Source: Bacillales bacterium
GTDB taxonomy: Bacteria > Bacillota > Bacilli > Bacillales > JAVBJX01
Assembly: GCA_031546705.1 (NCBI GenBank)
Contig: JAVBJX010000022.1
Location: forward strand, 1 to 64,000
Reading direction: 5' to 3'
DNA length: 64,000 bases
Position numbers: made by a program. This document shows, piece after piece, positions 46,201 to 52,200 of this stretch. Each line of letters begins with the position of its first letter. Position 1 is the first letter of the stretch.

Positions 46201-49200
46201 GCATCAATAAAGTAACCATCCAAACATTTGAGAAAGTATCTGGCTCGTGGAAACAAATCCATAACTTTACAGGATTTGTTGGCAGAAATGGTTTGACGGC
46301 AAATAAAAAAGAAGGCGATAAAAAATCACCTATCGGTACATTCAAAATTGGTACAGCATTTGGCGTATATAATAATCCCGGAACAAAATTACCGTACAGA
46401 AAAACAAGTGATGATGATGTGTGGGTAGATGATCCAAAAAGCCTACTCTATAATACATGGCAATCAAAAAGATTAACAAAGTCGAAATGGAAAAGTGCTG
46501 AACAAATGAAGATTCCTGCTTACAATTACGGTTTTGTCATTGAATACAATACCGAAAAAAGAATTCCCTATAAAGGAAGTGGAATTTTCTTTCATGTGAG
46601 TAAGAGTCCAACAGCGGGTTGTGTTGGGACAAGTCAAAAAAATGTTGTAGCTGTTTTGAAATGGTTAGACCTGAATAAAAATCCTGTGATTGTTTTGCAG
46701 AATTAACAAAGAGTTTGGGACAGAAGGAGCAAAAAACACCCCCATCTGTCCCAAACTCGATTTTTTATACTTCCAACAGCTCAGACTGCTCAACCATCAA
46801 TAATCTTTCTTGCAAACGGTCATCATAAAAACTATTTCCATTCCGTTCATCAAATAATTTTGCTAATTTTTTTGTTTCCTCCATAAACCATGTTCCAGCC
46901 TCAATGCCCGACTGTATAACAGTAGAATTCTGAGATAAAACTGGTTTAATATTTACACCTAATCTTTCTATTTGTACATATAATAAAGCAGAGGCTTGAT
47001 AAAATTTAAACTTAGCTTTTGTATCTTCTGACTGTTCTACTAGTGCATACTCTTTTTCTATTAAACTAATGGCATTTGGCATATTTCTAAGCACAGCATA
47101 AGCAAGTAGTTCTGCCAACACCTTAATAAATTGAGATTTTCCAGAACATAATTTCCAAGCTTTCTTAAAATACTTATCCGCTTCTTCTAATCGCCCCATT
47201 TTGTAGAGTGGGGTGAGTATGCGTTCATAGGTGAAATGTGGAACTTGTGCACATGTCATTGAACCTTTCAAAATTGGCTGTGCCTTTTGCATCATTTCTT
47301 CATATTTTCCCATGTATGCTAGATAGCGAATTTCATCATCTTGTTCACACGCTTTACAGTTGCTCATCCCATCACGTTTTGTTTTTACAAAGTTAGTGTA
47401 AGCATCTTCTGCCATTAATAAATCCCCAAAATCTAAGGCAATTGTTTTCTGTAAATCATAATATGTTCGCATGGAATAACCACACCGTTCATATCGTATT
47501 TTAAAATCTAGTAGAAGACCTTCTGTTTGTTTACGAGAAATTTCTGGAAATGCTCCTAATCTGTCAATAATCCATTTATACTCCCATAATAAATCATTTT
47601 CATCAAACAGTTCAGGATGTTTATCAGTCATGCTGACCATCCAAATAAACGCATTTAATTGTCGCTTTGGATAACTACAGTTAAAACAAGTGTCCACTAA
47701 TGCTTTTCTTGCCCTATATCCATGCTGAATATCCTGTAACGTATCCGCTCGATTGATTGCTTGTTCTAGTAAATCTATTCTCGCCTTCCCATATGGCAAA
47801 TGATATGCTTCATCCATCAATTCATAAAATTGTTCCATCACTATTCCCCTCTTTGCACATCTGAAATAATCTTAATTCTAATTCAAGATAAAATAAAAAT
47901 TAGAAACAGACAATCAGATTTTTTATACTCCCAACAGCTCAGACTGCTCAACCATCAACAATCTCTCTTGCAAACGGTCATCATAAAAACTATTTCCATT
48001 CCGTTCATCAAATAACTTGATTAATTTTTTTGTTTCCTCCATAAACCACTCTCCTGCTTCCATTCCAGACATCATCACTTCAGAATCTGGAGGTAAAACT
48101 GGTTTAATTTTCACTCCCAATCTCTCTATTTGCACATAAAGTAAAGCTGCTGATTGATAAAATCTAAACTTAGCTTTTGTATCTTCTGACTGCTCTACTA
48201 GTGCATACTCTTTTTCTATTAAACTAATGGCATTTGGCATATTTCTAAGTACGGCATAGAAAAGAATTTCTGCTAATATATCAATAAATGGGGATTTTCC
48301 AGAACATAATTTCCAAGCCTTTTTAAAATATTTATCTGCTTCTTCTAATCGTCTCATTTTGTAAAGTGGTGTGAGGATGCGTCCATAAGTGAAATGTGGA
48401 ATTTCCGCACAAGTCATTGACCCTTTTAAAATCGGCTTTGCCTTTTGCATCATTTCTTCATAGTTCCCCATATATGCTAAATATCGAACAGCACTATCTT
48501 GTTCACACGCTTCGCAGTCACTCATATCATCCCGTCTTAGTTTTACAAAACTAGCATACGCTTCTTCCGCCATCTTCAAATCACCAAAATCTAAAGCAAG
48601 TGATTTCTGTAAATCATAATATGTCCGCATCGAATAACCACACCGTTCATAGCGTGCTTTGAAATCTAGCAAAAGATCTTCCGCTTGTTTCCGAGAAATT
48701 TCTGGAAATGATGCTAATCGAATAATAATCCATTTATACACCCATAATAAATCTTCTTCATCAAATAGTTCAGGATGTTTGTCCGTCATACTAACCATCC
48801 AAACAAAGGCATTTAATTGCCGTTTTGGATAGCTACAATAATAACAACTATCTACTAATTCTTGTCTTGCTTCATAGCCACATTCAACATTTTGTAACGT
48901 ATCCGCCCGATTAATTGCTTGTTCCAGTAAATCAATTCGTGCCTTCCCATATGGCAAATCATATGCCTCTTCCATCAGTTCATAAAATTGTTCCATTATT
49001 CCCCCTCCCTTTCTACACCTAAACCAATATTAATTAAATCCAAATAACTAGTATTCATTAACTCCAATTCACTTGCCTTTAGTGGATAATGCCCCATTAA
49101 CAAAGCTTGTACATAGAACACTTGAACAACCGCTTCTAGCAATTCATCTGTTGCTTCTTCAACTAATTTCCGAATCGTTTTGTTATTTAAGTTCAATACT

Positions 49201-52200
49201 AGTTCCGCTTGACTTCGGGTATCTGCATAGGAAGCGGCAATGTTGGCTAACACTCCACCAAATAGTTCATTACTAAGTTCGGCTGTTCTTTCCAAACTTC
49301 TTTTTGTTAATACTTCATCCGAAGCAAAATAAACAGAGGTAATTGATTCAGGTTGAAACTTTCTTATATCACACCGCACAGAAAATGGTTGAAAAATTGG
49401 CTGTAATTTTTGCAAAATGACTTGAACTTTTTCTCGTTCTTGTAAAGAAAGAGGTAAGAAGCTAAATGAAATATCTTCTGGCTTGATCTTTTGTACTCGC
49501 TCATACTGGGACAAAATTTCCTTATCATACACATAGCCGCCATTTAACACTAATACTTGTTGGGCGTGAGCAATTGCTTGAATTTGCCGATATTCATCTA
49601 CTGTTTCTGTGTAATAAATCGTATCGTAGTTATTAAAAAAATAACGCAAAGAGTACCGACCATTAGAACTATCAAATGGCAATAACTCACCCATTACTTC
49701 CCGAAACTCTACATCTTCCGCTACAAATGCTTTCATTGCCAAATAATGCGTAGAAATTAATCCTTCTATGGCATGCGGATTTAACGAAGCTAATTGTAAT
49801 AACGATTGTTTTAAACTATCGCCCAGTTGCATACGAACGTCATCTAATTTGCCATCTTCATAGAAGCTTTCCCTAGAAGCAATCGGTTGTAATTCATCTG
49901 TCCAAATAATCGAACGAACAAAGAACGCCCATTCTGGCAAAATATTATCCACTTGCGTAGAAACTAGCATTCTTTTTAAATACACTCGATGTTTTTGATT
50001 TTTATTGGCACTCGTTGTATGCGGAATAACAAAAGCAATTCCACCAGTTTTTCCTTCAGGTGTCGTTAAAATAAAATATTGTTCAAAGTGCTCTTCTAAT
50101 AATTTCCGACCAAATGCAAGTACCTCTGCAGATGAACGTAATTCCAGTGGAATATCTAACCAATTTCCTGTCTCTTTATTGATGACGACTTCTCTTCCAT
50201 CTGAACTTAGTGTAATTGGAATTGGTAATAACGCACCAAATTCAAATAATAATTCGGCTAATTTTTCCTCACTTACCCATTCAGAACTTTCTTGTTTAAT
50301 TCGCAAATATACCCTTGTTCCATACTTGAAATTGCCCGCTAACTTCTTCAATTCATACGTTCCATCCGCTTTTCCACGCCACCGTGATGTTTCATTTGTT
50401 TTTGCTGATGTGGTAATAACCGTAATCTCATCACTTACAATAAAACAAGACAATAATCCCACACCAAAACGACCAATGAAATCTTCATTCGCTACTTCCC
50501 CACGTTTTGATGAATTGCCAATCGTTGCCAAAAACTGGTGAATTTCTTCCTCCGTTAAACCAATTCCATTATCTTCACACATTAAAGTCACGTTACCATT
50601 ACTATCTACTATTCTCTCAAATACAACACTATCTTCAGATTGTTTCTCTTGTAACTGACGCTTTGCCGCCATCGCATCCACGGCATTTTGGAGTAATTCC
50701 CGAATAAAAACAGCAGGGCTACTATATAAATTGTGTGATAATAAATCAATCATTCCGCCTAAATTCACTTGAAAACGAAAATCTTCCGTCATGTAATTCC
50801 CCTCACTTCGCTATAGTTATGCTAAAATATAATTAATGAATCCATTATACTACATAAATATATGTAGCGGATAATAGATGAATGAAGAGTAAAAAATGGT
50901 TCGTCCTACTTCTAATGATTACTTTATTTGTATCGACAGGTTGTTCTAAGGTTGAAAATAAAGAAATAATAGTTAATCAATATACTGACGATGGAAATGG
51001 AAATACATATAAAATCTTTAGGGAGATTGGTGTTCTTAAAGTGAAGAAAATGCTGGATGATATTCATTGGGAAGATCTAAACAAGGAGATTTCCTTCCAT
51101 CCTGCCGATTACCAATTTTTTTACAATTTACAGACCCTAACCTAAAAGCAAAGGCAATAACGTTTGATTTTTGGATTAATAAAGATATAGTAGAAATAGC
51201 TAGAGAACATACGAAGTACGCTCAATTAACAAAGGAAGACTCAAAAATTTTGATTGAGATTCTTATGTAGGATATATTAGATTAACATACGTCTATTTCC
51301 AATACGTATCTTGAACTACTCCCACTTTCACTTCGTTTAGAAGTGGGAGATTCCTAAGTACAGAAACCTATCGGTTTCTAATTCATTAGGCTATCTCTGC
51401 CGTTCCGACAGTTAGAAGTCTTATTGCTTCGTTTCTAAGATTCAGCCCTGCGTTAATATCTCTATTATGGTGTGTGCCACAAGAAGGACAACTCCATTCT
51501 CTTAGATTGAGATTTTTAACGGCTTTGTTTTGAAATCCACAGCACGAACATAATTGTGAACTTGCAAATGTTTTTGATACAACAATTACTTGTTTACTAT
51601 ACCATTTCGCTTTGTATTCAAGCATGGTTCTAAACTTCACCCAAGATACTTCACTAATTGCTTTAGCTAACTTGTGATTCTTTAGCATATTCGATACTTG
51701 CAAATCTTCCAGTCCTACAACATCGTGGTTTTTGATGATGTGAGTTGAGATTTTTTGCAAGTAATCTGTTCTTGCATTGGTGATTTTTTCATGGATTCTT
51801 GCGACTTTTACACGCTGTTTGTTCCAGTTTGAACCACCTTTAGTACGTCTGGAAAGGATACGTTGTGCGTTTGCTAGTTTTTCTTCCAATTTGTAAAACC
51901 ATTTAGGATTGCTAAACACTTCACCAGTTGAAAGGATTGCAAAGTCTTTGAGTCCAACGTCAACACCAACAGAAGAACCTGTTTTCTCTAGTGGTTGCAC
52001 GTCTACTTCTGCAAGAATGGAAACAAAGTGTTTTCCACTTGGATTGCGTCTGATTGTAGCATTCAGAATACGACCTTCTACTTCTCGACTTTTAGCAAAG
52101 CGGACATATCCTAGTTTTGGAAATTTGATTTTGTTGTCTACAACAGCAATGTTTCCATTTGTGTGCTTGGTAGTGTAAGACTGCACTTGGTTCTTTTTAG

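What a model noticed while it worked through the whole genome (the two positions that open the first line are those of the whole stretch)
46765..50792. A second, intact Hsp90 paralogue is translationally coupled to a dedicated Cys3-His TPR-like partner
Besides its normal htpG (g02450) the genome has a divergent full-length Hsp90 (g02398) whose stop codon abuts two tandem alpha-solenoid genes (g02397/g02396) with a conserved C-x2-C...C-x-E-x-P-H site. I read the pair as an Hsp90 machine with its own TPR/zinc co-chaperone or client, like SGT1/RAR1 of eukaryotic Hsp90. Bacterial Hsp90 is held to lack dedicated co-chaperones (recalled), so this would change that view and gives a function to test for the Listeria lmo0940-0942 locus.
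Evidence so far: g02398 keeps the Hsp90 catalytic motifs (RELLQNAVDA, DNGIG, GRFGVG, middle-domain Arg), as do the Listeria and Streptomyces copies. In 79 of 80 genome loci found with the partner, the Hsp90 paralogue lies in the locus, directly upstream in those viewed (mostly Paenibacillus, also Corallococcus; call 143). Same order in Listeria monocytogenes (two partners, 31-33% id) and Streptomyces (partner is the N-terminus of a longer protein, 24% id). C161, C164, C196, W89 and P200 are invariant in 32 partners. AlphaFold model is an all-helical solenoid, pLDDT 95; nearest folds are TPR proteins NprR/LGN/MalT at TM<=0.52; no NCBIfam hit.
(Added by a program. Inside this text positions count along the whole contig: contig position 1 is position 1 of the stretch shown here. 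"Call 12" and the like, gene names such as g00115 and contig names such as C1 are that model's own, and its searches are not shown. The text may have been shortened before it was handed on; [...] marks where a part breaks off. The agent that wrote the report below was given it as the finding of a first reader that could run no searches.)

Follow-up and report, generated by a model that had tools for sequence, protein, structure and literature searches.

The report
Second bacterial Hsp90 with dedicated partner
A divergent second Hsp90 chaperone gene is followed, here and in nearly all sampled relatives, by an unnamed helical-repeat protein that is predicted to dock on the chaperone's client-binding helix and likely serves as its dedicated adaptor, a kind of helper that bacterial Hsp90 is said to lack.

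Summary
The cassette is real. An intact Hsp90 paralogue (NCBIfam PRK14083) overlaps the start of the first of two 83%-identical helical-repeat genes. The partner lies directly downstream in 77 of 80 loci fetched by an Hsp90 motif.

New here: a complex model scores 0.69 against a best control of 0.00 (mark reached by 116 of 157 solved and 2 of 215 mismatched pairs). It places the partner's N-terminal helices on a lengthened client-discriminator hairpin of this Hsp90. Two partner lineages in genomes without the paralogue have decayed at that surface but keep the Cys/Trp core.

Corrections: the His of 'Cys3-His' is not invariant (25 of 35). '79 of 80' overstates the link: 32 of 80 partner loci lack the Hsp90. 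The SMI1 neighbour was seen only in Listeria. SGT1/RAR1 is an analogy, not homology.

Best reading: a dedicated, directly docking adaptor. Binding and function are untested. Ten literature searches found no description. This scan noted the same module at least seven times on other DNA.

The parts
48996..50792 (-). Hsp90 paralogue, 598 aa (NF010683/PRK14083; probably 'HtpG group C'); N, middle and C domains complete, catalytic residues kept, no EEVD tail
49227..49319 (-). Helical hairpin, residues 492-522, at the place of the HtpG client-discriminator helix; segment about 12 residues longer than in canonical HtpG; main predicted docking site for the partner
   Evidence: mapping through
48994..49009 (-). 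Ribosome-binding site inside the Hsp90 3' end and TAATG stop/start overlap (translational coupling inferred)
   Evidence: sequence
47923..48996 (-). Partner 1, 357 aa alpha-solenoid of eight helix pairs; no Pfam match above cut-off, no NCBIfam or PADLOC match; PHROG 34905 (unknown function)
48664..48960 (-). Partner residues 13-111: predicted Hsp90-docking face (second helices of repeats 1-3)
   Evidence: decayed in orphan lineages
48394..48516 (-). C161-x2-C164-x31-C196 triad with variable position 201 (His here); likely metal site
   Evidence: metal binding not tested
46765..47838 (-). Partner 2, tandem duplicate, 83% identical; changes concentrate in the first helix of each pair
46711..46758 (-). 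Strong hairpin after partner 2, shared with the convergent YkuD gene; likely terminator separating the cassette from hemW-hrcA-grpE-dnaK-dnaJ
   Evidence: -33.1 kcal/mol, z -7.7, 0 of 200 shuffles as stable

Best explanation
The cassette encodes a complete, divergent Hsp90 ATPase and a helical-repeat partner that is predicted to dock on it directly and likely works as its dedicated specificity adaptor. Shown: gene linkage, the Hsp90 catalytic residues, the partner's conserved Trp/Lys/Cys3/FDxRN core, and a lengthened C-domain hairpin in this Hsp90 family. Predicted: the second helices of the partner's first three repeats pack on that hairpin (residues 495-521) and on neighbouring middle-domain loops. 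Inferred: the opposite, concave face, edged by a likely Cys3 metal site, stays free to hold a substrate and present it at the chaperone's client cleft. Tandem copies and C-terminal extensions (TPR arrays, Sel1, DUF4026) would widen the substrate range. The substrate is unknown.
For: Linkage: the partner domain lies directly downstream in 77 of 80 Hsp90-motif loci and upstream in 1; the other 2 genomes carry it elsewhere. 69 of the 80 are Actinomycetota by record title, but the cassette also occurs in Bacillota, Myxococcota, Planctomycetota, Deinococcota, Acidobacteriota, Chloroflexota and Pseudomonadota. Of 600 genomes drawn from three phyla, 6 had both genes, adjacent, and none had only one. 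Complex model: 0.69 (runs 0.68, 0.72, 0.69), best of 3 controls 0.00; the mark was reached by 116 of 157 solved and 2 of 215 mismatched pairs; runs share at least 90% of contacts; partner pLDDT at least 84. No solved close relative of the partner was found to copy from. Independent check: two orphan lineages, absent from the alignments used for the model, score 0.05 and 0.07 at the 32 interface positions, against 0.80-1.90 for ten groups whose genomes hold the Hsp90. Conservation-matched shuffles reach that drop 5 and 0 times in 2000, while core residues outside the search motif are kept. The docking segment is 45-62 residues in 75 paralogues against 35-36 in 9 canonical HtpG. It matches the E. 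coli 'client discriminator helix' 543-565 (PMC11634960, passage; mapping). In the window pair, amino-acid changes hit first helices 30 of 125 against 13 of 138 in second helices plus interface (p=0.0015), with similar synonymous counts.
Against: The partner persists in genomes where the paralogue was not found (22 of 28 tested, 9 with no match to the Hsp90 model at all), so it has an activity of its own. The model puts it on the client-binding element, which fits a client equally well. The model is one chain against one chain, used my own alignments and a zinc ion outside the tool's calibration, and had no canonical-HtpG control. Only two independent orphan lineages exist. In the oral one the whole N-terminus has diverged (178 of 2000 random N-terminal sets drop as much). 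The groove-divergence pattern is clear in 6 of 21 paralogue pairs and reversed in 5. Assigning first helices to the groove rests on recalled TPR geometry, not on coordinates. No substrate gene is conserved nearby.
Confidence: 0.5

Rival explanations
1. The partner is the dedicated client. The Hsp90 paralogue folds, metal-loads or primes a ligand-sensing solenoid, much as Hsp90 primes steroid receptors, and the partner is the working end of the system.
For: The dependence is one-sided: every Hsp90-paralogue genome examined has a partner, but partners exist without it. The predicted contact is on the client-discriminator helix. The best fold match is the MalT domain III (Z 22.0, rmsd 4.9, 317 aligned; next Z 17.8), which I recall as a ligand-sensor domain.
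Against: The model docks a fully folded outer surface on a family-specific insertion, which looks like a stable cofactor interface (inference). Orphans fold without the paralogue. The partner carries no output domain in the short forms.
Confidence: 0.25
2. The pair is an immunity or conflict module: diversifying solenoids capture incoming toxins or phage proteins, and the Hsp90 holds or remodels them.
For: Patchy spread (0 of 40 same-order relatives over the cut-off). Tandem expansions: up to 3 copies in Listeria, about 6 in Alienimonas, 5 dispersed in one genome. Divergence in the presumed groove. SMI1/KNR4 gene downstream in Listeria. An orphan clade shared between Campylobacterota and Pseudomonadota.
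Against: No PADLOC match for six other partner forms or the two window partners; the Hsp90 matches only through the shared GHKL domain. Of 88 co-oriented neighbours scanned, SMI1 appears once (Listeria) and the named rest are mostly unrelated housekeeping genes. No effector domain in the fusions scanned. The partner tree largely follows phylum. Only 9 of 72,556 plasmid records and 5 short unannotated phage records match.
Confidence: 0.12
3. The partner is a regulator: it occupies the client site and keeps the Hsp90 off until a metal, redox or small-molecule signal at the Cys3 site releases it.
For: Predicted binding over the client cleft; three Cys with a variable fourth position; sensor-like nearest fold.
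Against: One clade keeps an Hsp90-adjacent copy without the Cys while a fused paralogue keeps them. Several diverging copies per locus fit specificity better than one switch.
Confidence: 0.08
4. The genes are co-inherited neighbours that do not bind each other.
For: The score is model confidence only. The tool's description reports 7 of 44 blindly picked neighbours passing. An exposed amphipathic helix in a monomer can attract partners in a model.
Against: Three controls scored 0.00. Orphans decayed at the same surface. Pairs split in the genome keep that surface (4 rows).
Confidence: 0.05

Closest known systems
NCBIfam NF010683 / PRK14083 'HSP90 family protein' (probably HTPG group C of Chen et al. 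2006, PMC1525184; hsp90C in Press et al. 2013, PMC3708813)
   Same: The window protein passes the family cut-off. Chen et al. list second HTPG copies in S. coelicolor (615 aa) and B. fragilis (588 aa) and a group C copy in Firmicutes (passages).
   Different: The passages read give no function and no partner gene; Press et al. state that hsp90B and hsp90C are ignored in their analysis. I did not place the protein on their tree.
Canonical HtpG (E. coli; Hsp90A)
   Same: Three-domain architecture and catalytic Glu, Asn, Gly boxes and Arg.
   Different: About 22% identity; lengthened C-domain hairpin; fixed partner gene. The basic residue at the E. coli R355 position (recalled as part of the DnaK contact) is K/R in 9 of 9 canonical copies, while here that column is mixed (R 22, A 16, C 14, S 11, Q 8 of 75). 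HtpG is described as lacking co-chaperones (PMC11634960, PMC3708813, passages).
Eukaryotic TPR co-chaperones (Hop, FKBP51/52, PP5) and SGT1/RAR1
   Same: A helical-repeat protein that binds an Hsp90 (predicted here) and may link it to substrates; a Cys-based metal site recalls RAR1 only loosely.
   Different: No EEVD tail in 75 of 75 paralogues. The predicted contact uses the outer helices on the C-domain hairpin, not a carboxylate clamp or the N-domain (their binding modes are recalled). No CHORD, CS or SGS match.
MalT domain III, RRNPP/NprR-type solenoids
   Same: Nearest solved folds (MalT Z 22.0; Rap Z 17.3; NprR Z 16.6).
   Different: 10-13% identity; no DNA-binding or STAND ATPase domain; Cys3 site; fixed Hsp90 neighbour. 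A shared solenoid fold shows no function.

Membership tests
Hsp90 family | GHKL ATP-binding motifs and catalytic Glu | tested here: met
   E32, N36, D74, G76, G78, G107, G110, G112 in 75 of 75
Hsp90 family | Middle-domain catalytic Arg | tested here: met
   R307 aligns with the SRE Arg of TRAP1/HtpG; 75 of 75
Hsp90 family | Full N-M-C architecture | tested here: met
   Model pLDDT 93; full-length Foldseek matches to Hsp90/TRAP1, TM up to 0.69
Hsp90 family | ATPase activity, dimerisation, chaperone activity | not testable with these tools
   needs protein
NF010683 / PRK14083 | Score above curated cut-off | tested here: met
   663.5 against 455
Canonical HtpG (PRK05218) | Score above curated cut-off | tested here: not met
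   199.6 against 371
HTPG group C (Chen 2006) | Placement in that clade | not tested
   Inferred from length and taxa in passages; their tree and signatures were not applied
Eukaryotic TPR-clamp co-chaperones | Hsp90 ends in EEVD bound by a TPR clamp | tested here: not met
   0 of 75 paralogues end in EEVD
TPR repeat proteins | Pfam TPR match above cut-off in the window's partner | tested here: inconclusive
   Only TPR_8 at E 0.03, below cut-off; fold is TPR-like; long forms carry TPRs in their extensions
SGT1 / RAR1 | CS, SGS or CHORD domain | tested here: not met
   No such Pfam match; model is all-helical
Cys3-His zinc site | Four conserved ligands | tested here: not met
   His 25 of 35, 101 of 148, 46 of 75; each Cys 35 of 35, 146-147 of 148, 65 of 75
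Cys3-His zinc site | Metal binding and ligand geometry | not testable with these tools
   No coordinates returned; zinc position not reported
Known anti-phage systems (PADLOC) | Match of the components to a system's models | tested here: not met
   Partners: none; Hsp90 only through residues 1-129 to TmtA and REase models
HrcA/CIRCE heat-shock regulon | CIRCE element upstream of the cassette | tested here: not met
   The only match in the window, up to 3 mismatches, is 44817-44843 before hrcA (consensus recalled)

The most novel reading that the evidence does not exclude
An ancient bacterial Hsp90 lineage has its own family of swappable substrate adaptors. A conserved N-terminal face plugs into a lineage-specific hairpin of the chaperone, while a metal-edged groove diversifies by duplication and fusion. 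This would be the first dedicated co-chaperone system of bacterial Hsp90, evolved independently of the eukaryotic TPR clamp.
Probability: 0.4. Interest if true: 0.88.

Novelty: new variant of a known kind. Interest (0 to 1): 0.76.

Why it matters
Papers state that bacterial Hsp90 has no obligate co-chaperones (PMC3708813, PMC11634960; passages), and the main co-evolution study left this paralogue out. A fixed partner with a predicted interface gives named residues to mutate. It makes a neglected Hsp90 lineage testable in Streptomyces, Paenibacillus and Corynebacterium glutamicum (whose genome passes the family cut-off, control), and offers a function for Listeria lmo0940-0942 (lmo0941 is called unknown in PMC6901971, passage). 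The partner family is large: 2931 clusters at 50% identity, with no Pfam family found for its core domain.

Tried and rejected

Co-transcription with the dnaK operon was rejected: an opposite-strand gene and a strong hairpin intervene, and no CIRCE precedes the cassette. The promoter scan gave fewer sites than shuffles (15 against a mean of 21.9).

Expression could not be shown. One metatranscriptome holds identical contigs over parts of the cassette at depth 3-6, like the 4.7 of a stretch with no listed ORF, so DNA is not excluded.

The mirror-tree correlation (r 0.92) is not counted, because kin share history.

No second copy of the partner domain was found in the Streptomyces extension (probability 3%). 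The ESM Atlas gave only unnamed or TPR-labelled clusters, with recognition below the tool's mark. PDB sequence hits were designed repeat proteins and weak NprR. GC content does not set the cassette apart. The 200-genome sample around G068 held neither gene outside the centre genome. The careful tree did not finish; the quick tree was used. PMC7926864 gave no text on the residues I looked for.

Literature searches found no description of the pair. For some searches I saw only the top 20 of 67, 25 of 177 and 30 of 248 listings. Subscription journals are largely outside the library, and no supplements were read.
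Full report
Observation. The region holds three minus-strand genes: a 598-aa Hsp90-type protein (48996-50792) and two 357-aa proteins (47923-48996, 46765-47838) that are 83% identical. The Hsp90 stop overlaps the first partner's start by one base; the second partner follows about 84 bases later. 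A hairpin at 46711-46758 (z -7.7) and an opposite-strand YkuD gene separate the cassette from hemW-hrcA-grpE-dnaK-dnaJ. The window's only CIRCE match lies before hrcA. A canonical htpG lies further along the same contig. None of 40 same-order relatives passes the paralogue's family cut-off, so the cassette was probably acquired, or widely lost in relatives.

The Hsp90. It passes NCBIfam NF010683 (663 against 455) and fails the HtpG model (200 against 371). The catalytic Glu, Asn, Gly boxes and middle-domain Arg are present in 75 of 75 aligned paralogues. The model is a full three-domain Hsp90. No member ends in EEVD. The C-domain segment between the conserved Pro column (485) and N534 is 45-62 residues, against 35-36 in 9 canonical HtpG. 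In E. coli this segment carries the 'client discriminator helix' 543-565 (PMC11634960, passage; mapping). The family probably equals HTPG group C of Chen et al. (PMC1525184, passages); I did not test that placement.

The partner. It has no Pfam match above cut-off and no NCBIfam or PADLOC match; it matches an unknown-function PHROG. A profile finds 2931 clusters at 50% identity. The model is a solenoid of eight helix pairs (pLDDT 96), closest to MalT domain III (Z 22.0, rmsd 4.9, 317 aligned). The conserved core is W85/K88/W89, C161/C164/C196, P200 and FDxRN. One Ruminococcus/Oscillospiraceae clade has lost all three Cys in the Hsp90-adjacent copy, while a DUF4026-fused paralogue in the same loci keeps them. 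Joint loss suggests one shared site, but it is one event. Longer forms add TPR arrays (Actinomycetota), Sel1 repeats or DUF4026.

Linkage from both sides. A motif scan for the Hsp90 returned 120 loci, 80 with flanks. The partner domain lies directly downstream in 77, upstream in 1, and is absent in 2, whose genomes carry it elsewhere. 69 of the 80 are Actinomycetota by record title. A motif scan for the partner returned 125 loci, 80 with flanks; the motif demanded Cys and His, which biases the sample. 48 had the Hsp90 in the locus and 32 did not, 4 of these with under 2 kb upstream. I searched 28 such genomes (24 of the 32, plus 4 from loci without flanks) and 2 positive controls: 6 of the 28 hold the paralogue and 22 do not, 9 of them with no match at all (5 rechecked). 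Many are assembled from metagenomes and may be incomplete. In even draws of 250, 200 and 150 genomes from three phyla, 2, 0 and 4 genomes had both genes adjacent and none had one alone. The dependence is therefore one-sided: the Hsp90 goes with a partner, but the partner can live without it. On a quick tree of 85 hand-picked rows the 16 true orphans form two lineages, Rossellomorea/Bacillus and an oral/mucosal group spanning Campylobacter, Kingella, Cardiobacterium and Moraxella.

Binding. Before the complex result came back, one search showed that orphans had lost conserved N-terminal residues while keeping the core. The complex model then scored 0.69 (0.68, 0.72, 0.69) against a best control of 0.00. 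The mark was reached by 116 of 157 solved and 2 of 215 mismatched pairs; runs share at least 90% of contacts; partner pLDDT is at least 84. These counts hold only roughly, because my own alignments and a zinc ion were used. The model is one chain against one chain, and canonical HtpG was not a control. The interface is Hsp90 495-521 with 261-263, 397-402, 419-421 and 565-570, against partner 13-33, 58-72 and 97-111. At those 32 partner positions the two orphan groups score 0.05 and 0.07, against 0.80-1.90 for nine cassette groups and four unlinked partners from genomes that hold the Hsp90. Conservation-matched shuffles reach the orphan drop 5 and 0 times in 2000. Against random N-terminal positions the counts are 178 and 7 of 2000, so in the oral group the whole N-terminus has drifted. 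The Cys-less Ruminococcus copies show a smaller drop (59 of 2000). The orphans were not in the alignments given to the model, but they are only two lineages.

Mechanism. The model uses the second helix of repeats 1-3. By recalled TPR geometry these form the outer face, leaving the groove with the Trp/Lys/Cys core free. In the window pair, replacements fall in first helices 30 of 125 times against 13 of 138 in second helices plus interface (p=0.0015), while synonymous changes are 23 and 32. Across 21 paralogue pairs the interface is clearly more conserved than the first helices in 6 and less conserved in 5. I therefore favour a docking adaptor with a variable groove (0.5) over a dedicated client (0.25), a conflict or immunity module (0.12), a signal-gated inhibitor (0.08) or no binding (0.05). 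Linkage, motifs and conservation patterns are shown; binding is predicted; the role is inferred. Neighbourhoods give no substrate: 88 co-oriented neighbours are heterogeneous, and SMI1 appears only in Listeria.

Known and new. The Hsp90 is a catalogued but, in the passages I read, uncharacterised family. Press et al. say no obligate bacterial co-chaperones are known and that they ignored this paralogue (PMC3708813, passages). SGT1/RAR1 and TPR-clamp membership tests are not met, so the likeness is functional at most. Ten searches found no description of the pair, within a library that lacks most subscription journals. I read passages only of PMC3708813, PMC1525184, PMC11634960, PMC6901971, PMC10393277, PMC3534079, PMC11687934 and PMC7926864 (the last gave only reference-list hits), and no supplements; the Press et al. 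supplement on paralogue distribution may bear on group placement. The scan's own notes record this module on at least seven other stretches; they are not counted as support.

Verdict. A real, multi-phylum two-gene module with a credible predicted interface; a new variant of Hsp90-plus-cofactor; interest 0.76.

Noticed in passing
window 51386-52516 (-): IS200/IS605-type TnpB gene between lepA/Uma2 and the Hsp90 paralogue; the lepA-hemW interval also holds a Uma2 gene (53288-53860 +) and a YkuD L,D-transpeptidase gene (46056-46706 +), so it looks like an insertion hotspot.
   Followed up: no
window 44817-44843: Perfect CIRCE match before hrcA; an RNA-library contig of depth 37 runs 41396-44828 over hrcA-grpE-dnaK.
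   Followed up: partly
L012, L020, L047, L050, L079, L080, L089: Ruminococcus/Oscillospiraceae loci: Hsp90, one or two Cys-less partners, then a Cys-bearing partner fused to DUF4026; no paper in the library mentions DUF4026.
   Followed up: partly
G525:C235:14334-21272; G043: About six tandem partner copies in Alienimonas, some degenerate, and five dispersed copies in a Deferribacteraceae genome.
   Followed up: no
L017, L031, L051, L087, L090 and others: Stand-alone partner clade shared across Campylobacterota and Pseudomonadota of mucosal habitats, inserted among housekeeping genes; split by a frameshift in L046 and L048.
   Followed up: partly
G579:C1; L147: One actinomycete genome has two complete cassettes; an Actinomyces locus has a long partner on each side of the Hsp90.
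   Followed up: no
window 50792-48996, residues 325-326 and 349: The column matching E. coli R355 (recalled DnaK contact) is not conserved in this family, which may mean it does not rely on DnaK for loading; H349 is kept in 74 of 75 paralogues where canonical HtpG has an aromatic residue.
   Followed up: partly
L282 (NZ_CP045273.1): A partner match in a Priestia megaterium plasmid record with no annotation in the region; not checked for an Hsp90 neighbour.
   Followed up: no
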